From: a virus
DNA: 64,000 nt
Reading direction: 5' to 3' (one strand)
IMG/VR virus record: IMGVR_UViG_3300021425_004462
Coordinates: 32,001 to 96,000 of that record
The position numbers and the translations under genes were made by a program. Shown piece after piece: positions 1 to 52,358 of the stretch (position 1 is its first letter; every line of letters begins with the position of its first letter). The notes beneath the pieces are model-generated. The model was not told the origin of the DNA and searched no databases. It saw nothing but the letters and a program-made list of their open reading frames with translations.

Positions 1-820
1 CGTTAAACGCTGCCTTGGGTTCTTTGCGGGATCTGAGTCTTTGGTTGGTAATAATCTGCTGCTTTCGGCTTTTAGATTTATTACTGATGCTGAATGCCGT
101 CAGTATATACTTCGTCAAGCTTTTGAGGAAAGCCTTCATAACCTTACGGTAGTTTATATTTGTGATAGCCTAGATCTTAATATAGAAGAAGTTTTCGCTG
201 CTTATGAAACAATTCCAAGTATTAAAGCTAAAGATGACTTTTTAATGGGCATTACTAATGATATTAGTCGTCAAGATTTTGACGCTCATACTATAGAGGG
301 CAAGCAAGAAATTTTACGCAATTTTTTGACTTATTGGATTGTTTGCGAAGGAACATTCTTTTTTAGCGGATTTGCAATGTTATTGGCTTTAGGTAGACAA
401 AACAAACTTCAAGGAATATCTGACCAAATTAAATATACTCTAAGGGACGAAAGTTCTCATATTGCGTTCGGAACTTATTTAATTAACACCTTGATTGATC
501 AAAATCCAGAAATATGGACAAAAGAAATTCAAAATGAATTTGTGGAGCATATGAAAAAAGCTGTAGAGCTTGAAATAGCTTATGCTCACGATGTTCTTCC
601 TACAGGAATACTTGGGCTAAATGCAGACATGTTTGTTGACTATATGCACTACATTGGAAATCGTAGATTAGAGGGTATTGGCTTAGACTATCGCTTTCCT
701 AGCGATAAAAATCCTTTCCCTTGGCTTAGTGAGGTTGTTGATGTTCAAGCAATGGGAAATTTCTTTGAAAGAAGAGTTAGAGAGTATCAACAAAGCGGAT
801 CTTTAGAAGACGATTTCTAA
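1..820 (+). CDS. nrdB: Ribonucleotide reductase beta subunit, class Ic-like (R2c); 5' end lies outside the window
   Basis: Frame is open from base 2 (VKRCLGFFAGSESLVGNN). Ferritin-like motifs EESLH, EGTFFFSGF, RDESSH and C-terminal NFFERRVREY. Confidence 0.95.
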   Translation, partial: VKRCLGFFAGSESLVGNNLLLSAFRFITDAECRQYILRQAFEESLHNLTVVYICDSLDLNIEEVFAAYETIPSIKAKDDFLMGITNDISRQDFDAHTIEGKQEILRNFLTYWIVCEGTFFFSGFAMLLALGRQNKLQGISDQIKYTLRDESSHIAFGTYLINTLIDQNPEIWTKEIQNEFVEHMKKAVELEIAYAHDVLPTGILGLNADMFVDYMHYIGNRRLEGIGLDYRFPSDKNPFPWLSEVVDVQAMGNFFERRVREYQQSGSLEDDF

Positions 821-1885
821 TAAAGAAGATTCAACTGTTACTCCTGGACCAAAAGTTGCAGAAAAAATATTTTTCTCACCGTTTGAGCGATTTTCCAAAA
901 TCTCTTTTAGTACAAATAAAATAGTGGGGCTACTCATATTTCCGTATTCTTTAAGAATATTTCTAGAATGTTTTAAATCTGCATCAGGTTTAAATTTTTG
1001 AAACGAATCAAGTATTGCCCTTCCCCCAGGGTGAATTGCCCAACAATCTATAGAGTTCTCTATTTCCAATATATGCTCGAGAGCTTCATTTATATTTTCG
1101 GATATAAAACTTGGAAGATCTGAATTTAAGGTTAAATCAAAACCATTGTCTCCGATTTTCCATGCTAAATTTTTTCCATCATCATTTATGACATGAGAAT
1201 TGAATGATTTAACTTCTAGAAATGGTTGTGTTTTTGTTAATTTTTCATCAGAAGAAACTATGCAGGCCGCACACCCATCAGAGAAAATAGAGTTTCCTAT
1301 AATATAGTTGGGATCATCTGTTAGTTTCATGTGAAGCGTACACATCTCAATGCAAACAACTAAAACCTTAGCATCTTTATTGCTCTTACAAAATTCTGAT
1401 GCGGTTTTTAATGCGGGAAATGCAGCTTGACATCCCATAAATCCAATATTTACCCTTTCTATGTTTTTATTTAAATTAAATTCATTTATTATCTCTATAT
1501 CTAAACCTGGATTATAAAAACCTGTACATGAAACGGTTATAAGGTGGGTAATTTCTTGTAGGTTTATTTTGTTTGAAATTTTTGATATCGCCTTGAAGGC
1601 GAGGGGTCCGCTATTTTTTTTATATATATTATTTCTTTCTGAAGTAGAAGGGTTATGCAAAGTCTTGTTTTCATTTCTATGAAAAAGTTCTGTTTCCGTA
1701 GTTGAAAGCCTTAAGTCTTTTAATACGGAATATCTATTTTTAATACCAGATTTTTTGATTGCTTGTTTAATTAAAAGCTTGTATCTTCTGTCATCTTGAA
1801 ATTCATTGATGAAATTGTAAATTTCTTCTTGACTACCTTTATGTTCAGGGTTTGAGGTTTCTATGCAGTTTATATAAATTCCCAT
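803..1885 (-). CDS. Type III polyketide synthase (chalcone/stilbene synthase family)
   Basis: Cys-His-Asn triad in FMGCQAA, WAIHPGG and YGNMSSP; also VSCTG and FGPG motifs. Confidence 0.93.
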   Translation of the reverse strand: MGIYINCIETSNPEHKGSQEEIYNFINEFQDDRRYKLLIKQAIKKSGIKNRYSVLKDLRLSTTETELFHRNENKTLHNPSTSERNNIYKKNSGPLAFKAISKISNKINLQEITHLITVSCTGFYNPGLDIEIINEFNLNKNIERVNIGFMGCQAAFPALKTASEFCKSNKDAKVLVVCIEMCTLHMKLTDDPNYIIGNSIFSDGCAACIVSSDEKLTKTQPFLEVKSFNSHVINDDGKNLAWKIGDNGFDLTLNSDLPSFISENINEALEHILEIENSIDCWAIHPGGRAILDSFQKFKPDADLKHSRNILKEYGNMSSPTILFVLKEILENRSNGEKNIFSATFGPGVTVESSLLEIVF

Positions 1886-1922
1886 AAAATATATTATGGA
1901 AATTTAAAATGAATTCAATAAA

Positions 1923-3215
1923 TTACCCTAAAATGTCTAATAGAGGCTCTCCCTTGTGTGCTATAGTAAAAGGTCTTCCTGAGGGAGAGTATTGGTAGTC
2001 ATTTAATGGTAAACCCAAAGTGTGTGCAATTGTCGCATTTAAGTCTTCTGGTTTAATAGGTTTGCCTTCTGTAGGAGTTCGACCCGTTTTGTCGGTCTCT
2101 CCATAAGTCATTCCACCTTTAATTCCTCCTCCTGCTAAAAAAGCTGTAAAGCAATAAGGCCAGTGATCTCTTCCGTCTCTTCCGTTAATATTTGGAGTTC
2201 TTCCGAATTCAGAAGTTAAAACTACCAAGGTATCGGAAAGCATACCTCTTCGATTTAAATCAATTAGCAGACCACTTAATGCGTGATCAATATCGGTGCA
2301 ATTTGCTGCTACTCTGTCAAAGTTATTATCGTGCGTATCCCATCCTCCCCTTGTTACTTCAACATATCTTACGCCATGCTCTACAAGCCTTCTTGCTAAT
2401 AAGCATCCTTTTGCAAAATTAGTTTGCCCATAAAGATTACTTGTTGACTCAGGCTCTTTTGTGATATCAAAAGCGTTTAAATCATTACTGTTCATTAATT
2501 TAATTGCATCTTTATATAAGTCAGAATAAGCTCTTACTTTTTTCTGTGGAAACTGAGTAGAGAAATTTTCATTTAAAGCTTCTGCAATAGATATTCTACT
2601 TTGGAAATGTTCATGATCCAAGTATGAGGCCATTTTACTATTAGCTAATCCTGAGCTTGGATTATTAATTGGCAATGCTCCATATTTAGATTCTAAAAAA
2701 CCAGCGCCGCCTCCGCCGCCACCTATTTTAACATTGCTGGGTATTGTTCTGTTGATTGAGCCAGAAAGTTTAGATACCCAGCTACCAAATGTAGGGTGAA
2801 CAATTGTACCTCTTTTAAGATAGCTTGTGTGCATTAAATAACTGGCTTGCTCATGCGCTCCTTGGCTTGTGTTCATTGTTTTAATTATTGCTGCATGATG
2901 CATAAGCTCGGCAGTTTTTGGCAAGTTTTCAGAAAGAATTACTCCATCTGCGCTTGTTGGTATAGATTTGGTGGGACCTTGAATATCTGGAGCGTCTGGC
3001 TTTGGTCCAAATGTATCAAGGTGAGACATAGCTCCTCCCATATTTAAATAAATTACGTGCCTTGCTGTAGGAACTCTTGCTCCTGGATTTAGCGCACTAA
3101 CACTATTATGTATATATGCTCCTGCCATTGGCATAAGTCCTACCCCAAAACATGCTTTTGCGGCATGAGCTATAAATTCTCTTCTTCCTAGTTCATCTAT
3201 TGTATTAAAGTTCAT
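1923..3215 (-). CDS. DUF1501 family protein (alkaline phosphatase/sulfatase-like) with a Tat signal
   Basis: GRREFI twin-arginine signal; GGAMSHLDTF, GCLLARRLVE.GV, GGWDTH, SEFGRTP and GRDHW motifs typical of PVC DUF1501. Confidence 0.92.
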   Translation of the reverse strand: MNFNTIDELGRREFIAHAAKACFGVGLMPMAGAYIHNSVSALNPGARVPTARHVIYLNMGGAMSHLDTFGPKPDAPDIQGPTKSIPTSADGVILSENLPKTAELMHHAAIIKTMNTSQGAHEQASYLMHTSYLKRGTIVHPTFGSWVSKLSGSINRTIPSNVKIGGGGGGAGFLESKYGALPINNPSSGLANSKMASYLDHEHFQSRISIAEALNENFSTQFPQKKVRAYSDLYKDAIKLMNSNDLNAFDITKEPESTSNLYGQTNFAKGCLLARRLVEHGVRYVEVTRGGWDTHDNNFDRVAANCTDIDHALSGLLIDLNRRGMLSDTLVVLTSEFGRTPNINGRDGRDHWPYCFTAFLAGGGIKGGMTYGETDKTGRTPTEGKPIKPEDLNATIAHTLGLPLNDYQYSPSGRPFTIAHKGEPLLDILG

Positions 3216-3225
3216 AATAGATTAT

Positions 3226-3230
3226 TACAC
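3226..3230 (-). promoter_or_regulatory. GTGTA motif 10 nt before the DUF1501 ATG (TTGACT also present at 3248-3243)
   Basis: Recurrent GTGTA-N9-10-start motif. Confidence 0.7.
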
Positions 3231-3254
3231 AATTTTGAGAAAAGTCAACACAAA

Positions 3255-3259
3255 GTGTA
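3255..3259 (+). promoter_or_regulatory. GTGTA motif 9 nt before GTG 3269
   Basis: Recurrent motif. Confidence 0.65.
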
Positions 3260-3268
3260 TGATATATT

Positions 3269-3655
3269 GTGCAGTTTTTATTACTTATCTTCTTAACTTG
3301 CAGTATTTTATGCGCTAAATTACAGATTAAAGATTATTTGGATGATTGCGATTGGTGCAAGAATCAGCTTAAAAGCACTCAACCTTTAGATATTGGTGAA
3401 TGGAGTATGAGATGCCAAAAAAAGCCGAAACCAATATGGTTTAATTATAGAAATATAGGCAGAGTCTATGGAACTTATAAAGAAAAAACTTCTATGTGTT
3501 GGATTTATTCTGAGAAATTAGGCTGGATATATAACACTCCTCAATACAAAGATTATATTTATACTCACAAACTTGGATGGATATATATAAAAGATGGTAA
3601 GGTTTATGTTTTTAAAAAGAAAAAGTGGGATTATTTTACAAATATAAATTCATGA
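3269..3655 (+). CDS. Small secreted protein with CxxC and Trp/Tyr-rich (WIY..LGWIY) repeats
   Basis: Hydrophobic N-terminus, CDWC, WIYSEKLGWIY and YIYTHKLGWIY; has its own GTGTA motif. Confidence 0.7.
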   Translation: MQFLLLIFLTCSILCAKLQIKDYLDDCDWCKNQLKSTQPLDIGEWSMRCQKKPKPIWFNYRNIGRVYGTYKEKTSMCWIYSEKLGWIYNTPQYKDYIYTHKLGWIYIKDGKVYVFKKKKWDYFTNINS

Positions 3656-5901
3656 GTGTTAATTAATGTCCATATTATTTCTTTGTATGCATCTTTAGTA
3701 TTTTTTATATTATCTGTAAAAATTTTAATTTCTTTAGTAGAAGGTTCTCTATTTAATATATATTTATATCCTATTGTAATTTTATCACTCAATGACTTTT
3801 GAGACTCTATTGCTTTTATAATTTCAAAGTTTTTATTTTTTAATAATCTAGTTTCAACAAATCCATTCAGGAGATTTAATACTTGTGTCGCAGAGGCACT
3901 TTTATTTGCGTTTTCTATCTGCTCCCTATCTGAACCACCAAACTCACGAATAAGGTGCCCTATGGGCGCAGGAGAGGGTAGTTCTGAGGCTCTAACTGAA
4001 TTGCGGTCTTTCACAAAGTTTTGCTTATACTCTTTTTTCTTATTTTCCATTTGAGATTTGAATTTATCAACACAAGACTCACAACAAAAAGCTACAGTTT
4101 CTCCGTTTTCATTTAGGGCTAATAATGTTGGGTCAATTGCTCTACCCGGTTTGATTGGACAGTCTGTGTTTATTGGCTTACTGAATTTAGACTTGCTTTG
4201 AGTTTTAGGTCTTTCAGTTTTGTTTATTTTTGCCATCAATTCTGAAAACAATTCTTCTCCTGTCATTTCTGAAAAATTTTGAAAATTTTGATATCCTTTT
4301 GTGTTTTGCTCTAATTTTCTAGAATCAACATTATTTACTGTCAAATTAACTAAAGAGTCCCAGATTTGCTCTCCACTCATTCTTTCAAGTATAGGTCCTT
4401 GATAGAAATATGGTACTGCATTTTTAGATTGATTTTCGCTGTCTGGGCCAGCTACAACCCATTTCACTTCTACAGGCATAGACTGATCTTTGTTGTCTTT
4501 AGGGATAACGTCTCTAACCACAGACTGACGCTGAAAAGTTTTTGTATTATATAATATTCTAAGAAATTCCTTAAGGTCATAATTTAATGCAACCATAACT
4601 TTTTCGAGATGAAGTTGAAGTTTTGGGTCCGTAGCTAATGTGTCGTCAAACATATTGTCTATGGGCTCAATTAATGCTAGTCCAAAAGCTTCTTTCCAGA
4701 GTCGATTGACAATGACTGCTGTAAATCTTGGGTTTGAATCTGAAGCTAGCCAGTTTGCATAAATTTCTCTAGATCCTGATTGAGGAGCTTTTGTTTTAAT
4801 ATCTATCTCTTCTCCAAAAATAGTTTTACCCATTAACGATTGGTTTGGTTTTGCGTTGTCGTATTGATAATCTTTCGGAAGATTTATCTTTCCATTACCC
4901 ATGCTGGCTAGTCCGGTTTGAAGAATATCTTGTATATCTCTCACGCCGTTTTGTAATTGCCTTGATTTTTGCGGCTCATCATTATTTTCTAACTTGCGTC
5001 TTTCATCTCTCGCTAATCTGTTTAATACGGTTAAATTTTCTGGACTTTTGGTTCTTAAGTTAGTTGAGCCACTCGTAAAAGCTGCCATTTCATAAAATTG
5101 CTTTTGAGTCCATCGATCAAATGGATGATCGTGGCACTGGGCACATTCTAAGCTAGTACCTAAAAATACTCTAACTGTATTTGCCATACTGTCTAATGGC
5201 ATGTTTACATCACGAGCAAAATAACTAACTCCTTCATTACCTTTGATCCATAATGGGCCAGAAGAAGAAAGCATCTCTCTCACCCATTCATCATAAGGCT
5301 TGTTGTTAGAGATGAAATCTTTGACATAATTTTTATATGGAACACCAGATATTCTATTATTTAATCTGTCTTTAATTCTTAATATATCTGCCCAGAAATT
5401 AAACCAATGACTTACATATCCTTCACTACCTAATAATTGATCAATTAGCTGCGATCTTTTGTTTTTATCTTTTCTATTTAAAAAAGTATCTACTTCTGTT
5501 AAAGATGGAGTTCTGCCTATAACCTTTAAGTATGATCTGCGTAAAAATGTAGCGTCGTCAACTTCTTTATTTGGTCGAAGATTATATCCTCTAAGTTTTG
5601 TTTCGATCAAGCTATCAATATAATTGGCATGAGTTTTTAAATCTTTCTCTGATAGCGGTTTTTTGAATTTAGGCAAAGCTTCGTGACTGGGCGGAAAGTT
5701 ATTTTTAATATAAGCTTGATTATCTTCTGTTAAAGAATCTATCGCTATTCTGAATAACTGTAAATCACTAGATCTTTTTATTAAAGCGTGGGTTGCATTC
5801 GCCTCAAGAATATCTCCTTTAAGATCTTTTCCGTTATTAAAATAAAGCGTATCGCCGAAGCAATAAATTGATGATAAGAATAATAAAATTAGTTTTTTCA
5901 T
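3631..5901 (-). CDS. DUF1549/DUF1553 (PSCyt2/PSD1) protein with a CxxCH motif and a YHS/TRASH-like insert; start re-called to ATG 5901
   Basis: Signal peptide MKKLILLFLSS; DDATFLRR.YL..IGRTP, CAQCHDHPFDRW, NPRFT..IVNRLW and W.LIN..EF motifs. The ORF-track start 6057 overlaps a terminator and the upstream gene. Confidence 0.9.
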   Translation of the reverse strand: MKKLILLFLSSIYCFGDTLYFNNGKDLKGDILEANATHALIKRSSDLQLFRIAIDSLTEDNQAYIKNNFPPSHEALPKFKKPLSEKDLKTHANYIDSLIETKLRGYNLRPNKEVDDATFLRRSYLKVIGRTPSLTEVDTFLNRKDKNKRSQLIDQLLGSEGYVSHWFNFWADILRIKDRLNNRISGVPYKNYVKDFISNNKPYDEWVREMLSSSGPLWIKGNEGVSYFARDVNMPLDSMANTVRVFLGTSLECAQCHDHPFDRWTQKQFYEMAAFTSGSTNLRTKSPENLTVLNRLARDERRKLENNDEPQKSRQLQNGVRDIQDILQTGLASMGNGKINLPKDYQYDNAKPNQSLMGKTIFGEEIDIKTKAPQSGSREIYANWLASDSNPRFTAVIVNRLWKEAFGLALIEPIDNMFDDTLATDPKLQLHLEKVMVALNYDLKEFLRILYNTKTFQRQSVVRDVIPKDNKDQSMPVEVKWVVAGPDSENQSKNAVPYFYQGPILERMSGEQIWDSLVNLTVNNVDSRKLEQNTKGYQNFQNFSEMTGEELFSELMAKINKTERPKTQSKSKFSKPINTDCPIKPGRAIDPTLLALNENGETVAFCCESCVDKFKSQMENKKKEYKQNFVKDRNSVRASELPSPAPIGHLIREFGGSDREQIENANKSASATQVLNLLNGFVETRLLKNKNFEIIKAIESQKSLSDKITIGYKYILNREPSTKEIKIFTDNIKNTKDAYKEIIWTLINTHEFIFVK

Positions 5902-5931
5902 TGTAGGATTATAATATTTATAAACTATAAT

Positions 5932-5936
5932 TACAC
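5932..5936 (-). promoter_or_regulatory. GTGTA motif (30 nt before ATG 5901), directly after a terminator
   Basis: Recurrent motif with a longer spacing than the other sites. Confidence 0.5.
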
Positions 5937-5962
5937 AAAAAAGCCACCCATTTCTGGGTGGC
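5937..5962 (-). terminator. Intrinsic terminator after the beta-barrel gene
   Basis: GCCACCCA-GAAA-TGGGTGGC hairpin followed by T6 on the minus strand. Confidence 0.85.
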
Positions 5963-5986
5963 GATATGGAACGTTTATTAGATTTC

Positions 5987-6637
5987 TTAAAAAGAAAAAC
6001 TAAGTCCTGCAGACAATAAATCTTCTCCGTCCATAGATTCAGAGTCGACTCTAGCATATCCTACAGAAGCTTCGATAGAATCAGTTAGATCTTTTGAAAG
6101 AATCGCTCCGACTTGATAGTAATCGTTGTTTTGAAGATCATACCTATCTGCATTACCAACTGATCCGCCCACAGTTAGGTTTGCGAATTGCAAATTAAAA
6201 CCATGAGATACCCCTCCTTCGAATACATAGTTATTATCACTAGTATCTCTTTGAATTAATACATAAGGCGACAATGCAGTATTCAAGCTCAATCTCACAA
6301 CTGCATCAAGTTGGCTTTTACCGTTTACAGCTTCTTCATGCTCAAAGCCTACATAAGCTTTGAGTAGATCTGTAAATTTAGAAGAAGCTCCTACAGAAAA
6401 AATATAAACACTTTGTCCATCAGAGAGTTCATCGAAAGAAGACGCCGAACCCTCAAGGGTTAAGCTTTCAATTTCTTGACTATAACCCACCGAAGCAGAA
6501 AGATTTTCTTCTGTCAATAAGGAGCCTTTGTTGAATGTATCAGTTCCGTATTCAAGAGATACAGAACCTGATCCAGCATAAGCCGCGTTAATAATAAGCG
6601 CCGTAATGGCAGTAAGGGTAATTAATAATTTTTTCAT
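5987..6637 (-). CDS. Outer-membrane beta-barrel protein (TorF/Gcw_chp-like putative porin)
   Basis: Signal peptide ending AYA, alternating amphipathic strands, C-terminal ...GLSFSF. Confidence 0.75.
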   Translation of the reverse strand: MKKLLITLTAITALIINAAYAGSGSVSLEYGTDTFNKGSLLTEENLSASVGYSQEIESLTLEGSASSFDELSDGQSVYIFSVGASSKFTDLLKAYVGFEHEEAVNGKSQLDAVVRLSLNTALSPYVLIQRDTSDNNYVFEGGVSHGFNLQFANLTVGGSVGNADRYDLQNNDYYQVGAILSKDLTDSIEASVGYARVDSESMDGEDLLSAGLSFSF

Positions 6638-6649
6638 AATTAAAGTAGG

Positions 6650-6677
6650 ATTATATATTATATATCAAAAAAGTCAA
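6650..6677 (-). promoter_or_regulatory. sigma70-type promoter for the beta-barrel gene
   Basis: TTGACT-N16-TATAAT. Confidence 0.7.
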
Positions 6678-7126
6678 TCAATTTTTATTTTATTTAGAGA
6701 TTTTCCTTTTCTGCGAGGTATTGTGATTTCTAATATACCATTATTCATAGAGGCAGATATTTTATCAGAATCTAATTCTGATGTGAGCTTGAATGTATTC
6801 TTGAATCCATCTTTAAAGATTTGTTGCTGAATGTACTCTCCTTCAATAGATTCTTCTTTTGGGGTTTTATAAGAAACAGAAAGCTTTCCGTTGTCGCATT
6901 CGATGTTGATATCTTCCTTGGGTATTCCTGGAGTTAGTAGTTCTATTATGGTTTCTTTTTCTCGCGCTATAACATTAGCTTGAACTGGGTAATCATCTAG
7001 CTCATTGAAATAATTTGTTTCTTCAGGTAGTGAGAAATTAAGGAATAAATCATTTAATAGATTATTCATTGTTGTTTTTGTTTTACTTGAATCTGGTCTG
7101 TAATTTTTTTTGAAGTAATATGACAT
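6674..7126 (-). CDS. Small heat-shock protein (Hsp20/alpha-crystallin)
   Basis: PGIPKEDINIE, F...F.L and ISASMNNGILEITIP motifs; C-terminal IKI (IxI) motif. Confidence 0.92.
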   Translation of the reverse strand: MSYYFKKNYRPDSSKTKTTMNNLLNDLFLNFSLPEETNYFNELDDYPVQANVIAREKETIIELLTPGIPKEDINIECDNGKLSVSYKTPKEESIEGEYIQQQIFKDGFKNTFKLTSELDSDKISASMNNGILEITIPRRKGKSLNKIKID

Positions 7127-7167
7127 AATTATATATTGTTGAGGGTTAAAATATTATAACCTATATT

Positions 7168-7184
7168 TGCAAAAGTTATGCCAA
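7168..7184 (-). promoter_or_regulatory. sigma54 (RpoN) -24/-12 promoter upstream of Hsp20
   Basis: TTGGCATAACTTTTGCA: GG-N10-GC matching the YTGGCA-N6-TTGCW consensus. Confidence 0.75.
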
Positions 7185-7781
7185 TTATTTTTTAAAAAGA
7201 AAGTTTCTCCATTCTGGACGCTCTGATTGGAACGGATGAAAGAATGGATACGGATAAGAAGGCTTTAAATCCTCACCTTTATAGTTTTTGTAAGGATATA
7301 TGGCAGCTTTTTTTGAGTTGCAGGGTTGGCAAGTTAATGTGACATTATGACTCTCTTTTGTGCCACCTTTACTTTTTGGATAAATATGTTCTATTGTTGT
7401 ATCTTTTATATCAAACTTATCTCCACAAATTTGACATCTACCTTTATATCTTTTATGTAAATATCTTAAATTAGGTTTTTCTTTTGTTTGGTATACCCAT
7501 TTTGCGGTAGTGAGTAATATAGTGGGTACGGGGTATAGTTTGTTCGATGAAGACATAAATGGCTGATTCTTGTAATAAGAAGCTCGCTCTTCATCTATCC
7601 ACTCTTCCCAAAATAACGGCTCTCCTGATTGAGATAAAACTTTAACTGAAGAATTTTTATCAAAAACAGAGCCGCAAGATATTAATTTCCTAATACCTTC
7701 TTTCGCTGTAGTGATATTGATTGGAGTCCAGAAGTGAGAGAGTATTAATACTACTCTATCTTTTCCTTGTATGAGATCCAA
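7185..7781 (-). CDS. HNH endonuclease
   Basis: CQICG, TIEHIYPKSKGG, NVTLTCQPCNSKK. Confidence 0.9.
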   Translation of the reverse strand: MDLIQGKDRVVLILSHFWTPINITTAKEGIRKLISCGSVFDKNSSVKVLSQSGEPLFWEEWIDEERASYYKNQPFMSSSNKLYPVPTILLTTAKWVYQTKEKPNLRYLHKRYKGRCQICGDKFDIKDTTIEHIYPKSKGGTKESHNVTLTCQPCNSKKAAIYPYKNYKGEDLKPSYPYPFFHPFQSERPEWRNFLFKK

Positions 7782-7783
7782 TA

Positions 7784-9211
7784 TTATTTATTTTCGTGGT
7801 GTCCGCCTTTAGAGGATTTGGGCTTTTCATGGGTGTAGCCCATTTTTTTCATCTTAAGGTGATCTTCTAAAGTTTTGGCTTTATAGCCTTTTCCTGTCTT
7901 GGGGTCATACATCATATGGGGTTCAAAATCTTCTTTGGCATAATCTTTTTTCATTTTTTTAGATTGAGCTTTTTTAATTGCTTCTTTTGAAGGATAGTCT
8001 TTATCTCCTGGCTTCGCAGGTTTATAGTTTTTGCCCATTCTTTTTTTCTTTTTTTGAATGTTTTCCCAAAGTCCTGCATCAGAAGTTTTTTCTTGTTTTT
8101 TAAGAATTGCGTCTTGTAATGGCTTGGGTAATTTTTTTTGCTTTTCTGTTAGGCCCGCTTCTCCTTTTTCATATAAAGAGCTTTTCATTTTATCGTATTG
8201 CATGGCACATGTAGCATATGTTTTATCTTTATCCATTCCTGCTGTATTGACTAAATCCTTATCGTAGCTCGCACAATGATCCATGAATGGTTTTTTCATA
8301 TAATCTTCAGCGGCTTCAGAAGATTCTTGAGGCGCTTCTGACTTTTCTTCTTCTCCTTTAGTCATTTTAGTAACACTTTTTTTACTCCACATTTTACAGC
8401 TCCAATAGCGGGCTTTTGTTTTTGGCCCAGGGTTTTCGCAGTTGTGGCGAGCTCTAAAATTCTTGCGACGACCAGGGTCATCACGTTTGATTTCCATATT
8501 TGGATCACCAAAATTTACTTTAACAACATTTCCTTTTTCGTTTTTAACGTAAACAGAAAACTTTTTTGGACCTTTGGGTGTTCTAAAAGGTTTGTTTAGT
8601 TTTTTTCCTTTATTCGATTCTGCCGCCCAACTTTCTTCGCTCACATACTCTTCGAAGCCTAGCTCATCAACATCAATAAAAATTGTACTCCACATTTCAT
8701 CTGTAAACTCCGGATCTTCTTGAAGCTGGTGGTTATAAATATCTAACTTCGCTTCAATGAAATCTTCTTCTGTGAAAAAGTTTTCTTCTCGCACTCCATC
8801 ATCAATAAGAACGTTCGCAGAAGCTTTAGCAATATCTTGATCAGCTTTCCTGTAGGAGTCTTTTACTTTGCCGCCTCTCACCATTTTTAAAAATGTATTT
8901 ACTCGAGCCATGGCCCATTGACCTCTACTTTTGCCTGGTCTATGGCTGGATGAAAATGCTCCTGCCCCTCTGCGATAAACTTTCTTTAATTGTGAAAGCG
9001 TAACCTTTTTGCTGTATTTTGAATTATGTTCTTTAACTTTTGATTTGAGAGACTCTAATACTTTTTCTGAAAAGGTAATTTTTCCGCCTTTTTCTCCTGC
9101 GCTTCCTGGCTTATTTTTATCTGAGCCTTTGCGTTTTTCTGATTTTTTTGCGGGTGTTTGCGCTGAACTCTTTGGTCCAGGACGTTTAGCTGAGTGAGAT
9201 TCGTTTTCCAT
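7784..9211 (-). CDS. Modular Lys-rich phage protein (DUF5824-like and DUF6321-like modules), probable internal head protein
   Basis: LKKVYRRGAGAF..SHRPG...QWAMARVN and VNFGDPNM...RRKNFRARHNC...ARYWSC modules; preceded by the GTGTA motif. Confidence 0.65.
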   Translation of the reverse strand: MENESHSAKRPGPKSSAQTPAKKSEKRKGSDKNKPGSAGEKGGKITFSEKVLESLKSKVKEHNSKYSKKVTLSQLKKVYRRGAGAFSSSHRPGKSRGQWAMARVNTFLKMVRGGKVKDSYRKADQDIAKASANVLIDDGVREENFFTEEDFIEAKLDIYNHQLQEDPEFTDEMWSTIFIDVDELGFEEYVSEESWAAESNKGKKLNKPFRTPKGPKKFSVYVKNEKGNVVKVNFGDPNMEIKRDDPGRRKNFRARHNCENPGPKTKARYWSCKMWSKKSVTKMTKGEEEKSEAPQESSEAAEDYMKKPFMDHCASYDKDLVNTAGMDKDKTYATCAMQYDKMKSSLYEKGEAGLTEKQKKLPKPLQDAILKKQEKTSDAGLWENIQKKKKRMGKNYKPAKPGDKDYPSKEAIKKAQSKKMKKDYAKEDFEPHMMYDPKTGKGYKAKTLEDHLKMKKMGYTHEKPKSSKGGHHENK

Positions 9212-9220
9212 ATTTATTTA

Positions 9221-10177
9221 TTACACAAATTTTTCTTTATTTTCTATGTACCATGAGTATGTTTTTTTGATTCCGTCTCTGAGTGATGTTGCAGGCTTGT
9301 ATCCCATTTTTAATAATTTATTATTGTCCATTTTTTTGCGATAAGTTCCATCTGGTTTAGATGAGTCGAATAATATATCTCCTTTATAGTTAACTATATC
9401 TTGTATTATATTAGTTAATTCAAGAATAGAAACTTCATCTTCAGAGCCGCAATTAATATGAGAAATTTTTTGATCATATATGTCTTTAGCCTCGACATTT
9501 TCTAAGCAATATTTTAATGCATCAGCTAAATCATCGACGTATAAAAATTCACGCAAGGGCTTTCCTGTGCCCCATACTTCGATATTCTTTTCGTTATTTT
9601 CTTTTGCTTCGTGAACTTTTCTGATGAGAGCTGGTAGCACATGAGAGCTTTTTAAATCAAAGTTATCTCTAGGGCCATACATATTGCAAGGCATAACTGA
9701 ATAAAAATTATTTTTATATTGATCATAGAAGCTTTCGCATAATTTGATTGCTGCTATTTTTGCAATTGCATATGGTTCATTGGTTTTCTCTAACACATCG
9801 GTTAGAAGGCTATCTTCTGTGATTGGTATTTTTGCATCTCTAGGGTATATGCAAGAGCTGCCGAGATTTATAAGTTTGTGAACATTATACACATGGGAAG
9901 CGTGAATTAAATTACTTGCTATCTGCAGGTTTTGATATATAAAATCTGCACGGTAGATATTGTTTGCAAGAATTCCTCCGACTTTTGCTGCACAAATTAT
10001 GACTACATCAGGCCTTTCTTGCCCAAAGAATTTATTAACTTCTGCTTGATTGGTTAGATCTAATTCCTTTCGGGTTTTGGTTAATAAATTTTTATAACTA
10101 TTTTTAGTAAGATTATCTAGAACCGCAGACCCTACCATTCCGTTGTGCCCGGCAATGAAGATTTTTTTATTATTCAT
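9221..10177 (-). CDS. fcl: GDP-L-fucose synthase
   Basis: AGHNGMVGSA, AAKVGGI, LGSSCIYP, YAIAK, SHVLPAL, WGTGKPLREF. Confidence 0.95.
   Translation of the reverse strand: MNNKKIFIAGHNGMVGSAVLDNLTKNSYKNLLTKTRKELDLTNQAEVNKFFGQERPDVVIICAAKVGGILANNIYRADFIYQNLQIASNLIHASHVYNVHKLINLGSSCIYPRDAKIPITEDSLLTDVLEKTNEPYAIAKIAAIKLCESFYDQYKNNFYSVMPCNMYGPRDNFDLKSSHVLPALIRKVHEAKENNEKNIEVWGTGKPLREFLYVDDLADALKYCLENVEAKDIYDQKISHINCGSEDEVSILELTNIIQDIVNYKGDILFDSSKPDGTYRKKMDNNKLLKMGYKPATSLRDGIKKTYSWYIENKEKFV
9222..9226 (-). promoter_or_regulatory. GTGTA motif 10 nt before ATG 9211
   Basis: Recurrent motif. Confidence 0.7.
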
Positions 10178-11205
10178 CGACTTAATTGCATGTAGTCATT
10201 TTGATACATTTTTTTAACTAAACCTTTAAAATCAGTCTTCCTGGTCCAACCCATTTCTTTTTCTGCTAAACTGCAGTCTCCGCATAATTCATGGACTTCT
10301 GCAGGTCGATAGAATTTAGGGTTTACCTCAAAAATTAATTCACCATCTAAGGTATAGTATTTTTCATTATCCTCAGATCCAGAGGATTCAAATTGAATTC
10401 CTGCACATTTTAAAGTTTCATTTAAAAACTCTCTAACAGTGTGCATTTCGCCGCTACCTAGAACGTAATTTTTAGGTTTTTCTTGATTTAACATGAGCCA
10501 AACGCCTTCCATGAAATCTTCTGCGTCACTCCAATCTCTTTTAGCTTCTAGGTTTCCAAGTTTTAAAACAGGTATTTGCTTTTTATCTTCTATAGCTAAT
10601 TTTATTCTAGCTACTGTATGGCTAATTTTTCTTGTTACAAAATCCAATCCTCTCCTTGACCCTTCATGGTTGAACAGCCAACCTTGAACTGCATACAGGT
10701 CATAGGATTCTCTATAGACCCTGACAATATGTCTAGCTGCGCATTTTGCAGCTCCATATGGACTTTGAGGTCTAAGAGGGTGAGTTTCGTCTTGAGGGCT
10801 GCAAATTACATCTCCAAATTCCTCTGAAGATCCCGCATTGTAAAACTTACAACTTGGCGCAAACCTACGTATTGATTCTAAGATATGTAAAACTGCATCA
10901 GCGTCTGTATCCCATGTTTGAATTGGGTAGTCCCAACTTCCCGCTACAAATGACTGTGCAGCAAAATTTATAAAAAAATCTGGGTGAATATCGATAATTA
11001 CATCTCTAATACTGTGTGCATCATTTAAATCCATATTAATTAATTCAAATCTAGATTGATTTTCTAAGTGCAAAATGTTCTCGTGGTTTTTTACGCTCAA
11101 ACGGCGAGCTGTGCCGTATATTTTATAATCTGTATTTTGTAAAAGATAATCAACCATATGGCTGCCATCTTGGCCCGTTACTCCTGTTACTATAATTTTT
11201 TTCAT
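10174..11205 (-). CDS. gmd: GDP-mannose 4,6-dehydratase
   Basis: TGVTGQDG, AAQSFV, SPYGAAK, FNHE, FVTRKI, LGNLEAKRDW, YRPAEV. Confidence 0.95.
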   Translation of the reverse strand: MKKIIVTGVTGQDGSHMVDYLLQNTDYKIYGTARRLSVKNHENILHLENQSRFELINMDLNDAHSIRDVIIDIHPDFFINFAAQSFVAGSWDYPIQTWDTDADAVLHILESIRRFAPSCKFYNAGSSEEFGDVICSPQDETHPLRPQSPYGAAKCAARHIVRVYRESYDLYAVQGWLFNHEGSRRGLDFVTRKISHTVARIKLAIEDKKQIPVLKLGNLEAKRDWSDAEDFMEGVWLMLNQEKPKNYVLGSGEMHTVREFLNETLKCAGIQFESSGSEDNEKYYTLDGELIFEVNPKFYRPAEVHELCGDCSLAEKEMGWTRKTDFKGLVKKMYQNDYMQLSR

Positions 11206-11597
11206 TTTAACATTAAAATTGAATTTATTGTGTTTTCTGTCATTGGTGTTGGTAAAGAATTTTCTTGTATATTATAATACCCCCATTCGTCATGTTCAAA
11301 AAAATCTTTTGCATTTTCATCTGGAAAAATTAGATCATGCAATTCCGAGTGAAAGACTGCGAATTTATGCGTTCTGCTCATATCGTAAGACGTTAAAAAC
11401 TTTGTGTTTTCTGATTTAATAGTAATTAGAGTTTCTTCATAGACTTCTCTGATTGCAGCTAGTTTTGGGTCTTCATCTAGTTCTATCATGCCACAAGGCA
11501 TTGACCAATGCCCTGCAAAGTTATGACAAATATGGCTGCGCCGACCTAGGAGTACTAGATTATTAAAAGTTAATAATACTCCCGCTGCTTTATACAT
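11202..11597 (-). CDS. Nudix hydrolase
   Basis: Nudix box GMIELDEDPKLAAIREVYEET. Confidence 0.88.
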   Translation of the reverse strand: MYKAAGVLLTFNNLVLLGRRSHICHNFAGHWSMPCGMIELDEDPKLAAIREVYEETLITIKSENTKFLTSYDMSRTHKFAVFHSELHDLIFPDENAKDFFEHDEWGYYNIQENSLPTPMTENTINSILMLK

Positions 11598-21988: not shown

Positions 21989-23083
21989 ATGGGCGCCTTC
22001 GAGACTTTCGTAAATGCTAACTTAGGTATAAGAAAGCCTTTGATCCTTGACGTAGGACATCCTACTGAAAGCTCTAAGGCGGCAGGTATTGTTGGCTCTG
22101 AGTATGTTGATACTCAAACTAATAATGTTTACGAAAAAACTGGAGAAAATAATCTAGAAGATTGGGTTTATGTTAGAACCCTAGGTGACTCGCTAAGAAT
22201 AGACGTCATTAATTTAGATCAACGGGTTGATGAATTAGAGGAGCTGAATAAGGACACTTTAATTTTAAATAAAAGTTCTGCTGCTCAAAATTTTTCATCA
22301 ACCGTTAATTTACCGAATAATATTACCGATTTAAATATAAGCTATGAATCCTTAGGTAATGATGTAGTTTATTTATCCTCTCCTAGGGTTTTTGCTTCGC
22401 TGAGATTTGACTCGGAGCCGAATTCTTTTTATGTATATAATATATTTAATGTAACAACAAGTGATTTTAGTATACAGTTTTCCGATAATGTAATTGAGCC
22501 TGATTGTAAATTAGATATACTTATTTCTGCGTCTGCAAGTCAAATTAGTGGGTACGTAGAGGGAACGACTGGAGATACTGGTGGGACAACTGGAGATACT
22601 GGAGATACTGGAGGAGTAACTGGAGATATTAGCGGGACTTCCTTCGTTTGGTTTAATGAGGTTGATGACCGCTTAATTATAAGAAATACTGTTTTAAAAA
22701 CTGAAGACCCTGCATTAACTTATTGGGAGTACGACGGAAACTATATTAAGCCTCTAGAGTCTGGTTCTTTGTTTAGTGGAGATTACTCTCAGTTTTTTAT
22801 TGAAACGGGTCAAAATATTACTTTATTTGATGAAGCAACAGACGAGTCTTATACTATTAATGACGGCGAAGCTCCTGTAGGAGGTGATGCCCAATCTGTG
22901 ACATTCTTTTCCTCAGAAGATCAAACATTAACAATGCTAGAGTCTCCAGAAGTTTTAACAGATCCTGCTATAGAACTTTTTGAAACAGGAAATAACTCCT
23001 TGATTCCTTTGGGGTCGCCACAAGAAACGCAAGTAGATTCTCAATATTTCCAAGAAACAGGAGATTATGTAACTATAATTTAA
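21989..23083 (+). CDS. Acidic virion-like protein with H-lectin-like domain and TG-rich linker
   Basis: GSEYVDT.T.NVYEKTG, SPRVFASL..NVTTSDFSIQFS, TTGDTGG repeats, (W/F)E.....L.P repeats. Confidence 0.55.
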   Translation: MGAFETFVNANLGIRKPLILDVGHPTESSKAAGIVGSEYVDTQTNNVYEKTGENNLEDWVYVRTLGDSLRIDVINLDQRVDELEELNKDTLILNKSSAAQNFSSTVNLPNNITDLNISYESLGNDVVYLSSPRVFASLRFDSEPNSFYVYNIFNVTTSDFSIQFSDNVIEPDCKLDILISASASQISGYVEGTTGDTGGTTGDTGDTGGVTGDISGTSFVWFNEVDDRLIIRNTVLKTEDPALTYWEYDGNYIKPLESGSLFSGDYSQFFIETGQNITLFDEATDESYTINDGEAPVGGDAQSVTFFSSEDQTLTMLESPEVLTDPAIELFETGNNSLIPLGSPQETQVDSQYFQETGDYVTII

Positions 23084-23089
23084 AAAAAT

Positions 23090-23094
23090 GTGTA
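23090..23094 (+). promoter_or_regulatory. GTGTA motif 9 nt before ATG 23104
   Basis: Recurrent motif. Confidence 0.7.
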
Positions 23095-23103
23095 TAATAT
23101 AAC

Positions 23104-23619
23104 ATGTCAACAAAAAGTATAATTCCTAGAGGTAGCGGAGAAGGTGGGCTTGGTCTTAATGATGTTAGGTGGGGCGAAGCTTATTTTGATAACGGTCATT
23201 TCAATAGTTTAGAAATTAGCGGGAAAAGAGTTCTCGTTGAAGGTGATGCTCAAGGAGGGTCTTCTCAGGATTTGAGTAATTTTCATGAAAAAAATTCTGA
23301 TGGAGGATTGACTGTTACTGGACAGGTAAATCTTTCGGGGCATATTATCCCGCTAGAAAACGCTCAATTCGATTTGGGTTCTGCAGAGAAAAAAATCAGA
23401 CATCTGTTTTTGAGTGATAATTCTATGTTTATAGGGGACCAGTCAATTTCTGTGGATGATAATAAGAATTTATTACTACCTTCTGGAATAAAACTGGGAG
23501 GAGAAAATGGTTTAAGTATAACTCAAAACCAAGATGGAAGAATAGTTTTCCCAGAGCAGGGATTTGTTATTGGCGGGGGAGACGGTTCTAACGAATTGAT
23601 TGATGGTGGGTATTTTTAA
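23104..23619 (+). CDS. Short tail-fibre-like protein
   Basis: GHIIP..NAQFDLGSAEKKIRHLFLS fibre repeat; C-terminal IDGGYF. Confidence 0.65.
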   Translation: MSTKSIIPRGSGEGGLGLNDVRWGEAYFDNGHFNSLEISGKRVLVEGDAQGGSSQDLSNFHEKNSDGGLTVTGQVNLSGHIIPLENAQFDLGSAEKKIRHLFLSDNSMFIGDQSISVDDNKNLLLPSGIKLGGENGLSITQNQDGRIVFPEQGFVIGGGDGSNELIDGGYF

Positions 23620-23621
23620 TC

Positions 23622-24302: not shown

Positions 24303-24311
24303 ATATTATTT

Positions 24312-24316
24312 TACAC
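24312..24316 (-). promoter_or_regulatory. GTGTA motif 9 nt before ATG 24302, directly after a terminator T-tract
   Basis: Recurrent motif. Confidence 0.7.
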
Positions 24317-24342
24317 AAAAAAAGGCGACCCAAAGGGTCGCC
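24317..24342 (-). terminator. Intrinsic terminator
   Basis: GGCGACCC-TTT-GGGTCGCC hairpin followed by T7 on the minus strand. Confidence 0.85.
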
Positions 24343-24372
24343 CGAGATAACTAAATATCTTTCTCGTAGATG

Positions 24373-44871: not shown

Positions 44872-44875
44872 TACA

Positions 44876-45679: not shown

Positions 45680-45681
45680 TA

Positions 45682-48704: not shown

Positions 48705-48711
48705 ATAATAG

Positions 48712-48746
48712 TTGAGAAAATAAATACAGGACATATAATCCTGTAT
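48712..48746 (+). promoter_or_regulatory. sigma70-like promoter with the -10 box flanked by an 8-bp inverted repeat
   Basis: TTGAGA-N16-TATAAT; ATACAGGA (48724-31) / TCCTGTAT (48739-46). Confidence 0.6.
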
Positions 48747-48747
48747 C

Positions 48748-52357: not shown

Positions 52358-52358
52358 T

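What the first reader, a model, noticed from the sequence alone, without database searches (positions are those of the whole stretch)
803..1885. Intact type III polyketide synthase in a phage genome
Seen: complete Cys-His-Asn triad, AT-rich codon use like its neighbours, an 18-bp convergent overlap with nrdB, and a weak possible promoter (TTGAAT-N16-TAATAT, 1918-1891). Established: bacterial type III PKSs make alkylresorcinols or alkylpyrones from acyl-CoA/ACP. No partner methyltransferase or oxidoreductase is adjacent. Inference: the phage may make a phenolic lipid that alters the host envelope or acts as a signal. Such enzymes are rare in phages as far as I know.
Basis: partly seen in the sequence, partly recalled or inferred. 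Interest (0 to 1): 0.75.

Follow-up and report, generated by a model that had tools for sequence, protein, structure and literature searches.

The report
Type III polyketide synthase in marine phage
An uncultured marine tailed phage carries an intact, evolutionarily maintained plant-like polyketide enzyme as a rare add-on gene, so the virus probably makes a phenolic lipid inside infected cells, which is unusual for a phage.

Summary
Window 803-1885(-) is an intact 360-aa type III polyketide synthase (PKS): both Pfam chalcone/stilbene-synthase domains, Cys152-His285-Asn316, and every family-wide conserved residue. The record is a phage (large terminase, tail sheath, replication genes; no integrase found). 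It is not a chimera: the DUF1501-PKS-nrdB junctions recur in two other contigs (~89% nt identity) and in contigs of four other studies' runs.

The gene is selected (dN/dS 0.075-0.09 at dS ~0.5) and has the phage's own composition. It is a cassette (822-1929) that replaces a 55-bp terminator spacer found in close relatives: of 17 related IMG/VR loci with the same DUF1501|nrdB junction, 1 has the PKS.

No cellular protein exceeds 46% identity. Cellular relatives mostly sit beside a methyltransferase and/or an FAD monooxygenase (alkylresorcinol-type operons); the phage record has neither, nor an acyl-CoA ligase or carrier protein.

The neighbouring PSCyt2/PSD1-DUF1501 module points to marine Opitutales (Verrucomicrobiota) hosts; none of 32 candidate genomes showed a type III PKS.

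Best reading: a stand-alone synthase making long-chain alkylresorcinol/alkylpyrone from host acyl-CoA and malonyl-CoA. Product and role are inferred, not shown. The proposed promoter is no better than chance.

The parts
803..1885 (-). Type III polyketide synthase gene (360 aa; Cys152-His285-Asn316)
   Evidence: ORF; Pfam N and C domains; triad and 45 family-wide conserved positions kept; dN/dS 0.075-0.09 at dS ~0.5
822..1929 (.). PKS cassette: the stretch present here but replaced by a 55-bp spacer in the closest PKS-less relatives
   Evidence: blastn homology to L098-L100 stops at 821 and resumes at 1930. The relatives' spacer holds a GC hairpin plus T-run
803..820 (.). 18-bp convergent overlap of the PKS 3' end with the nrdB 3' end; the last six PKS codons and its stop lie in sequence shared with PKS-less relatives
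1886..1922 (-). 37-bp spacer between the DUF1501 stop and the PKS start. It holds the weak promoter-like TTGAAT-N16-TAATAT (1918-1891) and no predicted terminator
   Evidence: Sequence; scan; 35 of 37 bases identical in L002 (read)
1..820 (+). 3' part of nrdB (ribonucleotide reductase small subunit; the full gene is G000 31807-32820)
   Evidence: Pfam Ribonuc_red_sm 2.5e-58; ORF table
1923..3215 (-). DUF1501 protein with a twin-arginine-like N-terminus, directly upstream of the PKS on the same strand; probable co-transcription partner
   Evidence: Pfam DUF1501 2.3e-109; N-terminus; dN/dS 0.008
3221..3248 (-). Better promoter-like site (TTGACT-16-AATAAT, TG before the second hexamer, 10/12) just upstream of DUF1501; candidate promoter of a DUF1501-PKS transcript
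   Evidence: consensus match only
3631..5901 (-). PSCyt2/PSD1 (DUF1549/DUF1553) protein, probable start at the MKKLILLF signal-like sequence. With DUF1501 it forms a module shared with Opitutales genomes
   Evidence: Pfam; translation; orthologues directly upstream of DUF1501 in L090-L093

Best explanation
Window 803-1885(-) encodes a functional, stand-alone type III polyketide synthase. It is carried as a rare accessory gene (a 'moron' or auxiliary metabolic gene) by a tip subclade of a widespread family of marine contractile-tailed phages. These phages probably infect small-genome Opitutales (Verrucomicrobiota).

Shown:
- The enzyme is intact and keeps all catalytic and family-wide conserved residues.
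- It is under purifying selection and fully adapted to phage composition.
- It sits as a 1.1-kb cassette that replaced the terminator spacer between the convergent DUF1501 and nrdB genes.

Inferred:
- It is transcribed with DUF1501, because there is no terminator between them.
- The homodimeric enzyme loads a host long-chain acyl-CoA (or acyl-ACP) on Cys152 and adds about three malonyl-CoA units.
- It cyclises the product to a 5-alkylresorcinol, or lactonises it to an alkylpyrone.
- The product is an amphiphilic phenolic lipid that partitions into the membranes of the infected cell.

The record has no methyltransferase, FAD monooxygenase, acyl-CoA ligase or carrier protein, so the phage supplies only the committed condensing step and draws both substrates from the host.

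Most likely benefit (speculative): stabilising or protecting the infected cell's envelope against oxidative or lytic damage until lysis.
For: Enzyme:
- Pfam N and C domains are well over their cut-offs.
- Cys152/His285/Asn316, Phe201, Phe249 and FGPG(345-348) are invariant.
- All 45 positions that are >=98% conserved across 189 sequences are kept. Only 7 clade-specific changes fall at positions >=85% conserved in 183 cellular relatives.
- Best solved relative is PKS18 (1TED), 4.1e-44. Cys182 aligns with the residue that differs between 1TED and 1TEE.

Selection: dN/dS is 0.090 (window-L002, dS 0.49), 0.075 (L002-L087) and 0.228 (window-L087, dS 0.06).

Phage context:
- Large terminase: Terminase_6N 6.8e-9 and phrog_2 2.2e-26.
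- Tail sheath 1e-36 and DnaB; Pol III alpha and ClpB; nrdA.
- No tyrosine integrase.
- IMG/VR virus record, 86% complete by CheckV.

Not a chimera:
- L002 and L087 keep both junctions at ~89% nt identity.
- Run X6 record 17 (45.7 kb) spans 1-4000 and X2 record 11 spans 73-4000.
- X7 record 26 and X11 records 4 and 5 bridge the junctions. These are four different studies.

Cassette:
- Homology to L098-L100 is broken exactly at 822-1929, where those relatives have a hairpin plus T-run spacer.
- The PKS is in 1 of 17 IMG/VR loci with the DUF1501|nrdB junction.
- On flank trees the PKS-plus rows lie in a 5-row tip group together with PKS-less rows.

Product class:
- Of 67 cellular loci examined, 38 have a SAM methyltransferase and 34 an FAD_binding_3 monooxygenase among the three ORFs on either side of the PKS, mostly just downstream on the same strand (35 of the 40 methyltransferase ORFs are the next ORF). 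54 loci have at least one.
- Planctomycetal enzymes in such operons make pentadecyl- and heptadecyl-resorcinols, as do HidC and SrsA (PMC10896814, passages).
[quoted passage not shown] It raised resistance to endolysin digestion and to H2O2 (PMC13730376, abstract).
Against: - No activity, product or expression datum exists; no RNA run was listed.
- The phage clade sits on a very long stem (1.2 changes/site) outside every cellular clade. Its specificity may therefore have drifted from that of the operon-embedded relatives.
- No characterised enzyme could be placed in my tree.
- Resorcinol versus pyrone, starter length and number of extensions cannot be read from the sequence here.
- The tailoring genes that define the cellular pathway are absent from the phage.
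- No type III PKS was found in the candidate host genomes, so the end product may differ from that of any known pathway.
- Host assignment rests on one gene module.
- The record is 86% complete, so a partner gene could lie in the missing part.
Confidence: 0.6

Rival explanations
1. It is an active type III PKS in the phage, but it makes a different product class. Examples would be a malonyl-CoA-only aromatic (phloroglucinol, THN or dihydroxyphenylacetate type) or a short-chain pyrone, acting as a pigment, redox compound, antibiotic or signal rather than a membrane lipid.
For: - The stem of the phage clade is long, 1.2 changes/site.
- Seven fixed changes fall at otherwise conserved positions, including Y256D and L181M beside the PKS18-Cys205-equivalent Cys182.
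- The best NCBIfam hit is the DpgA model.
- The only GenBank phage precedent, ZL12, is RppA-like.
Against: - The DpgA score is 142 bits against a cut-off of 425.
- Identity to the ZL12 enzyme is only 24%.
- All nearest relatives (34-46% identity) belong to the radiation whose members sit in methyltransferase/FAD-monooxygenase operons.
- The best solved match is the long-chain enzyme PKS18, with its tunnel Cys conserved (the role of that residue is recalled).
Confidence: 0.25
2. The gene is a passenger picked up by recombination, with no role in infection, on its way to being lost.
For: - It is absent from 16 of 17 related IMG/VR loci with the same junction, including relatives with 99% identical DUF1501.
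- No partner genes are present.
- No convincing promoter of its own.
Against: - dN/dS is 0.075-0.09 over dS ~0.5, with no stops in three lineages.
- Synonymous divergence matches that of the flanks, so it has been kept since those lineages split.
- Codon use is fully phage-like.
- Relatives at 67-70% identity form one clade with it, implying long residence in this gene pool.
Confidence: 0.06
3. It is an artefact: a cellular contig or bin contaminant wrongly called viral, or a mis-join placing a bacterial PKS next to phage genes.
For: The record is a linear metagenome assembly, 86% complete. DUF1501 and PSCyt2/PSD1 are typically cellular families.
Against: - Phage hallmark genes lie on the same contig.
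- Identical junctions appear in L002, L087 and in contigs of runs from four other studies.
- PKS composition is typical of the contig.
- No cellular protein exceeds 46% identity.
Confidence: 0.03
4. It acts as a FabH-like ketoacyl-ACP synthase III that boosts host fatty-acid synthesis, rather than as a polyketide synthase.
For: Weak Pfam ACP_syn_III and ACP_syn_III_C matches, 30.6 and 30.1 bits.
Against: - The NCBIfam FabH models score 29.7-43.4 bits against cut-offs of 249-304.
- The chalcone/stilbene-synthase domains score far higher.
- All close relatives are annotated or placed as type III PKS.
Confidence: 0.03

Closest known systems
Bacterial alkylresorcinol-type type III PKS operons (SrsABC of Streptomyces griseus, HidABC of Cyanobium, methyltransferase-oxidoreductase-T3PKS operons of Planctomycetota)
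   Same: Same enzyme family, triad and size. The nearest cellular relatives of the phage enzyme have a methyltransferase and/or FAD monooxygenase close by (54 of 67 loci). Products of characterised members are long-chain alkylresorcinols (PMC10896814, passages).
   Different: At most 46% identity. The phage group is a separate long-branched clade. It is phage-borne and stand-alone: no methyltransferase, monooxygenase, ligase or carrier protein in the record. No characterised sequence was compared directly.
Mycobacterium tuberculosis PKS18 (PDB 1TED/1TEE), long-chain alkylpyrone synthase
   Same: Best solved-structure match (4.1e-44, 154.5 bits). The triad aligns, and Cys182 aligns to the residue mutated in 1TEE.
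   Different: A distant relative. The first ~80 residues are outside the aligned stretch. Its product and the role of the tunnel residue are recalled, not tested.
ArsMB, a marine type III PKS expressed alone in E. coli (PMC13730376)
   Same: It shows that a lone type III PKS can make cell-associated alkylresorcinols from a host's own acyl-CoA pool, with effects on endolysin and H2O2 resistance (abstract). This is the working model for the phage gene.
   Different: It is a bacterial (Pontimonas) gene studied in a heterologous host. Its sequence was not compared here.
Streptomyces phage ZL12 (pZL12.100), annotated type III PKS
   Same: The only GenBank phage with a type III PKS found by tblastn (2 records of one phage among 50,697).
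   Different: 24% identity, annotated as RppA-like, in an actinobacterial phage with a 90-kb circular record and unrelated neighbours.
Type III PKS genes on giant-virus-like IMG/VR contigs (L146-L149)
   Same: Viral contigs encoding both chalcone/stilbene-synthase domains.
   Different: 32-33% identity and 412-433 aa. In L148 the gene lies next to an mRNA capping enzyme, so these are viruses of eukaryotes and a separate acquisition.

Membership tests
Type III polyketide synthase (chalcone/stilbene synthase superfamily) | Chal_sti_synt_N and Chal_sti_synt_C domains above Pfam gathering scores | tested here: met
   77.1 and 80.2 bits against a cut-off of 27
Type III polyketide synthase (chalcone/stilbene synthase superfamily) | Cys-His-Asn catalytic triad | tested here: met
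   C152, H285 and N316 are invariant in A1 and >=98% conserved in 189 sequences. They align to PKS18 positions 175/313/346 (numbering recalled)
Type III polyketide synthase (chalcone/stilbene synthase superfamily) | Conserved gatekeeper phenylalanines and the GFGPG loop | tested here: met
   F201, F249 and F345-G346-P347-G348 are invariant. The names of these motifs are recalled
Type III polyketide synthase (chalcone/stilbene synthase superfamily) | Stand-alone ~40-kDa protein without a carrier-protein domain; homodimer | tested here: inconclusive
   360 aa, full-length alignment to relatives of 356-398 aa; no PP-binding match in the record. Dimer not tested, as structure tools were off
Type III polyketide synthase (chalcone/stilbene synthase superfamily) | Iterative decarboxylative condensation of malonyl-CoA | not testable with these tools
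   Needs an enzyme assay
Alkylresorcinol/alkylquinone (Srs/Hid-type) pathway | PKS gene in an operon with a methyltransferase and/or an FAD-dependent oxidoreductase | tested here: not met
   Met in cellular relatives (54 of 67 loci). In the phage record none was found: tblastn and four cluster HMMs, PF13649 and PF01494
Alkylresorcinol/alkylquinone (Srs/Hid-type) pathway | Groups phylogenetically with characterised alkylresorcinol synthases | not tested
   No characterised sequence was available to the tools. In the tree the phage clade is a separate long branch
Alkylresorcinol/alkylquinone (Srs/Hid-type) pathway | Long-chain alkylresorcinol product | not testable with these tools
   Needs GC-MS/LC-MS
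DpgA (3,5-dihydroxyphenylacetyl-CoA synthase) | NCBIfam equivalog NF042429 at or above 425 bits | tested here: not met
   142.4 bits
FabH / ketoacyl-ACP synthase III | NCBIfam FabH models at or above their cut-offs (249-304 bits) | tested here: not met
   29.7-43.4 bits
Phage auxiliary gene (moron/AMG) | Lies inside a real phage genome between phage genes, and is present or absent among close relatives | tested here: met
   Hallmark genes; junctions reproduced; present in 1 of 17 related loci, with cassette boundaries 822-1929
Phage auxiliary gene (moron/AMG) | Recognisable host-derived origin | tested here: inconclusive
   No donor clade in the tree. Best cellular identity is 46%. Not found in 32 candidate-host genomes

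The most novel reading that the evidence does not exclude
The phage gives its host a biosynthetic ability that the host lineage lacks. A single viral enzyme turns host acyl-CoA and malonyl-CoA into phenolic lipids that load the infected cell's membranes. This 'chemical armour' would protect the virus factory against oxidants, against lysis from outside by competing phages, or against premature lysis. Alternatively the compound acts as an antibiotic or deterrent released at lysis. This would be the first polyketide-lipid auxiliary gene of an environmental virulent phage. Natural PKS-plus and PKS-less sister phages exist as a ready-made experiment.
Probability: 0.3. Interest if true: 0.8.

Novelty: new variant of a known kind. 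Interest (0 to 1): 0.6.

Why it matters
Known phage auxiliary metabolic genes mostly touch central metabolism: photosynthesis, nucleotides, phosphate, sulfur and carbon. Secondary-metabolite synthases are scarcely known outside prophage-borne bacteriocins (that statement is from recall).

Here a small-molecule synthase is kept under selection in a free marine phage lineage. It differs from every cellular homologue and has been stripped of the tailoring genes that accompany it in bacteria.

If it is active, viral infection would change the lipid and natural-product chemistry of abundant marine Verrucomicrobiota. Viromes would then also be a source of compact, self-sufficient polyketide enzymes.

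The case is directly testable. It is a single 360-aa gene, expression systems for such enzymes are published (PMC10896814, PMC13730376), and natural sister phages with and without the cassette exist.

Tried and rejected
- **Near-identical DNA in GenBank phages:** no match for window 1-6100.
- **Cultured relatives:** large terminase against GenBank phages gave at most 28% identity, so there is no cultured relative and no host hint.
- **DUF1501 in GenBank phages:** no match.
- **tRNAs:** none in the window or in the four further loci (L003-L006), which together cover the whole record.
- **Rfam on window 1-9500 at E<=0.1:** nothing.
- **RNA evidence:** no RNA holder listed. I did not use contig depths to rank genes or genotypes, as the tool warns against it.
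- **Metagenome scan with the phage-clade alignment:** one locus only, L087.
- **Phylum-wide host sample:** 401 genomes of the phylum of G003, none with DUF1501 at E<=1e-150. The order-level sample then found 32 of 401.
- **Zero overlap of host markers:** none of the 32 DUF1501-orthologue genomes is among the 34 genomes with a PKS match. About 2.7 would be expected by chance, so on its own this is suggestive, not significant. The genomes are also draft assemblies.
- **Weak PF02797 matches in G687 and G605** (28.1 and 20.7 bits): these gave no tblastn match to the PKS. I take them to be FabH-like, which I did not verify.
- **Neighbour analysis:** 13 of 80 genome loci were dropped because my nested-ORF filter lost the PKS ORF in them. 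These were mostly high-GC genomes, so the counts are k of 67.
- **Flank trees:** L087 was left out because its DUF1501 is cut by the contig end.
- **Donor of the PKS:** not resolved. I ran no AU test. treekit flagged the phage rows for deviant composition.
- **Resorcinol versus pyrone and starter length:** no structure could be predicted, and no characterised reference sequence could be fetched.

**Literature.** None of the searches listed a paper on a phage-encoded type III PKS. The searches were:
- 'type III polyketide synthase' + phage
- alkylresorcinol + bacteriophage
- phage-encoded + biosynthetic gene cluster + T3PKS
- type III PKS + auxiliary metabolic + viral
- Verrucomicrobia + phage + DUF1501
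- Opitutales + phage + AMGs
- giant virus + polyketide synthase + chalcone

I read only listings for most hits. Passages of PMC10146946, PMC13495085 and PMC9903846 concerned bacterial clusters only. Supplements were not opened. Table S2 and Figs S1-S8 of PMC10896814 may bear on sequence-function links.
Full report
**What is there**

Window 803..1885 on the minus strand is an uninterrupted ATG-started ORF of 360 aa.
- It matches both halves of the chalcone/stilbene-synthase fold: Chal_sti_synt_C at 2.1e-22 and Chal_sti_synt_N at 1.8e-21, both about 50 bits over the cut-off. It also matches FAE1_CUT1_RppA.
- NCBIfam gives only sub-threshold matches: DpgA at 142 bits against 425, and FabH models at 30-43 bits against 249-304. 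It is therefore neither of those.
- In a 19-sequence alignment Cys152, His285 and Asn316 are invariant. So are Phe201, Phe249 and the FGPG loop at 345-348.
- Against 183 cellular relatives, the six phage-clade sequences keep all 45 positions that are >=98% conserved. They differ consistently at only seven strongly conserved positions: F67L, L136F, L181M, D193N, M240L, Y256D and A344T.
- The best solved relative is M. tuberculosis PKS18 (1TED, 4.1e-44). The triad aligns to positions 175/313/346, which I recall as its catalytic residues. Cys182 aligns to the one residue that differs between 1TED and 1TEE.
- The protein aligns end to end with its relatives, so it is not truncated.

- The 18-bp convergent overlap with nrdB (803-820) is real.
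- The AT-rich composition is that of the contig: GC 31.2%, GC3 23.3%, both within one standard deviation of the 100-ORF mean. The codon-frequency distance is in the 6th percentile of ORFs of similar length.
- TTGAAT-N16-TAATAT is present at 1918-1891 but matches only 8 of 12 consensus positions. The scan of 1-9500 found 33 promoter-like sites where shuffles give 35.1.
- No terminator is predicted between the DUF1501 stop (1923) and the PKS start (1885). A better promoter-like site lies upstream of DUF1501 at 3248-3221. Co-transcription with DUF1501 is my preferred reading, and it is an inference.

**Is it a phage, and is the linkage real?**

The window is bases 32001-96000 of a 122,059-bp IMG/VR virus record, linear and 86% complete by CheckV.
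- The record encodes a large terminase, a tail sheath and a DnaB helicase, and tail-fibre-like proteins.
- It also encodes a primase-like protein, RecA and a PD-(D/E)XK nuclease, Pol III alpha and a ClpB-like ATPase, and nrdA/nrdB.
- No tyrosine integrase and no tRNA were found.
- Two other contigs, L002 (a 51.9-kb IMG/VR record) and L087 (a 32.8-kb metagenome contig), are collinear with it at about 89% nt identity. They carry the same DUF1501-PKS-nrdB arrangement.
- Twenty DNA runs from nine studies of seawater, marine or estuary metagenomes hold the stretch.
- In four of them, from four studies, independent contigs bridge the junctions. One contig of 45.7 kb spans the whole of 1-4000.

**Selection**

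- Between the window and L002 the PKS has dN/dS 0.090 at dS 0.49.
- Between L002 and L087 it has 0.075 at dS 0.50.
- The flanks have similar dS: nrdB 0.58 and DUF1501 0.63.

The gene has therefore been maintained since these lineages split, and it has co-diverged with its neighbours.

**An accessory cassette**

Searching IMG/VR with the neighbouring DUF1501 protein gave 49 viral loci at 62-99% identity.
- Seventeen of these have nrdB convergent directly after DUF1501. Only one, the contig of L002, has the PKS between them.
- In the closest PKS-less relatives (L098-L100; DUF1501 99% identical in protein) homology to the window runs 1-821 and 1930-3292.
- The 55 bp that those relatives have in between holds a GC hairpin followed by a T-run, a typical two-way terminator between convergent genes.
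- The PKS cassette (822-1929) thus replaced that terminator. The last six PKS codons and the stop lie in the shared nrdB end.
- On trees of the flanks, the two PKS-plus rows and three PKS-less rows form one unresolved tip group. This sits inside a larger PKS-less family.

Either one gain, or a gain followed by a loss, fits these data.

**Where the gene comes from**

- Among 5.8 billion protein clusters, only four are close: 94%, 70% and 67% identity, plus a 71% fragment, all on short unnamed contigs. The next hit is at 46%.
- In a tree of 85 sequences the six phage-clade rows form a fully supported group. It sits on a stem of 1.2 changes per site, outside the Bacteroidota, Verrucomicrobiota, Balneolota, Actinomycetota and Deinococcota clades.
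- This was a quick search, and the phage rows were flagged for deviant composition.
- No donor can be named. Divergence together with phage-like codon use argues for long residence in a viral gene pool.

**What the relatives do**

The genome-contig scan kept 80 cellular loci, and I could analyse 67 of them (13 were lost to my ORF filter). I looked at the three ORFs on either side of each PKS.
- 38 loci have a SAM-dependent methyltransferase; 35 of the 40 such ORFs are the next ORF downstream on the same strand.
- 34 have an FAD_binding_3 monooxygenase, 54 have at least one of the two, and 18 have both.
- UbiA prenyltransferase and MatE occur in 10 loci each.
- This is the gene set of alkylresorcinol/alkylquinone pathways. 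In PMC10896814 (passages) planctomycetal type III PKSs from methyltransferase-oxidoreductase-PKS operons made pentadecyl- and heptadecyl-resorcinols. The paper likens them to cyanobacterial HidABC and cites SrsA, FtpA and AgqA.
- The phage record has none of these partners by tblastn, by four cluster HMMs or by Pfam family search. It also has no AMP-binding ligase and no carrier protein.
- A lone enzyme can suffice. [quoted passage not shown] It raised resistance to endolysin digestion and to H2O2 (PMC13730376, abstract).

**Host**

- The DUF1501 protein has a continuous series of relatives from 99% down to about 60%. It includes two named 'Verrucomicrobiota bacterium' proteins at 80% and 77%, and several members on contigs of 200-340 kb.
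- In a 401-genome sample of the order that holds L012's genome (record title: uncultured Opitutales bacterium), 32 genomes have a single orthologue at 52-80% identity.
- In all four loci inspected, a PSCyt2/PSD1 orthologue (42-58%) lies directly upstream, as in the phage. Those loci have 44-47% GC, so they are not this phage.
- The phage family therefore shares a two-gene envelope module with marine Opitutales, which are the likely hosts.
- In the same 401 genomes a type III PKS match (E<=1e-30) occurs in 34, only four of them strong. None of the 34 is among the 32 candidate genomes.
- About 2.7 overlaps were expected by chance, and the genomes are drafts, so this is only a hint that the host lineage lacks the enzyme.

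**How rare it is**

- tblastn of 50,697 GenBank phage records found only Streptomyces phage ZL12. Its gene is RppA-like and 24% identical.
- No PHROG family matches.
- Pattern scans of IMG/VR found the L002 contig. With looser patterns they found four contigs at 32-33% identity.
- One of those four is labelled a giant-virus MAG. Another carries an mRNA capping enzyme next to the PKS. These are viruses of eukaryotes.
- The pattern scans see only sequences that keep two short motifs, so they give a lower bound.
- Seven literature searches listed no paper describing a phage-encoded type III PKS.

**Verdict**

- It is a divergent, stand-alone member of the bacterial type III PKS radiation whose operon-embedded members make alkylresorcinols.
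- It is carried as a rare cassette by a tip lineage of a widespread marine phage family.
- The product (a long-chain alkylresorcinol or alkylpyrone made from host substrates) and its role (protecting or remodelling the infected cell's envelope) are inferences awaiting a simple expression experiment.

Noticed in passing
window 1923-6057 (-); loci L096-L144; L090-L093: A PSCyt2/PSD1 (DUF1549/DUF1553) plus DUF1501 gene pair, a typically planctomycete/verrucomicrobial pairing of unknown function, is carried by 49 IMG/VR viral loci. It shares gene order and 78-80% (DUF1501) identity with Opitutales genomes. The phage DUF1501 has a twin-arginine-like N-terminus and is extremely constrained (dN/dS 0.008). 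It has no match in GenBank phages or PHROGs. This may be a more widespread unexplained phage auxiliary module than the PKS itself.
   Followed up: partly
window 3269-3655 (+): A 128-aa ORF with a hydrophobic N-terminus fills the ~415-bp gap between PSCyt2/PSD1 and DUF1501 on the opposite strand. It is 90% conserved in L002 and L098. It is absent from the host loci, where the two genes lie about 57 bp apart. No Pfam search was run on it, and it has no PHROG match.
   Followed up: partly
window 40279-53180 (+), 9221-11597 (-), 27126-29030 (-): The phage carries a large surface-glycan gene set. It includes GT25-, GT9- and WavE-like proteins, a polysaccharide pyruvyl transferase, a HAD hydrolase and two further glycosyltransferases. 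It also has GDP-mannose 4,6-dehydratase with an epimerase/reductase, and a NUDIX hydrolase. The phage invests heavily in envelope or cell-surface chemistry.
   Followed up: partly
window 5987-7126 (-); G000 22513-24975 (-): There is a signal-peptide beta-barrel-like protein ending in ..LSFSF, with a weak match to the cyanophage outer-membrane-protein domain. An Hsp20 and a full-length ClpB-like double AAA+ chaperone are also phage-encoded.
   Followed up: no
window 53184-60413 (-), 60413-64000+ (-); G000 103617-110039 (-): Three very long ORFs (2409 aa, 1580 aa in the full record, 2140 aa) were not searched against any family library.
   Followed up: no
L146-L149 (PKS at about 5908-7209 in L148): Four IMG/VR contigs, one labelled a giant-virus MAG, encode a 412-433-aa type III PKS at 32-33% identity to the phage enzyme. 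In L148 it lies directly after a trifunctional mRNA capping enzyme. My one literature search listed no paper on this.
   Followed up: partly
window 816-833: In runs X6, X7 and X11 several contigs match nrdB and then run on into unrelated sequence right after its stop codon (loose ends). The nrdB 3' end therefore looks like a variable insertion point in this phage group.
   Followed up: no
window 7185-7781 (-): An HNH endonuclease gene (HNH_5 at 3.1e-13) sits between the Hsp20 gene and a DUF5824-containing protein. It may be a mobile homing element.
   Followed up: no
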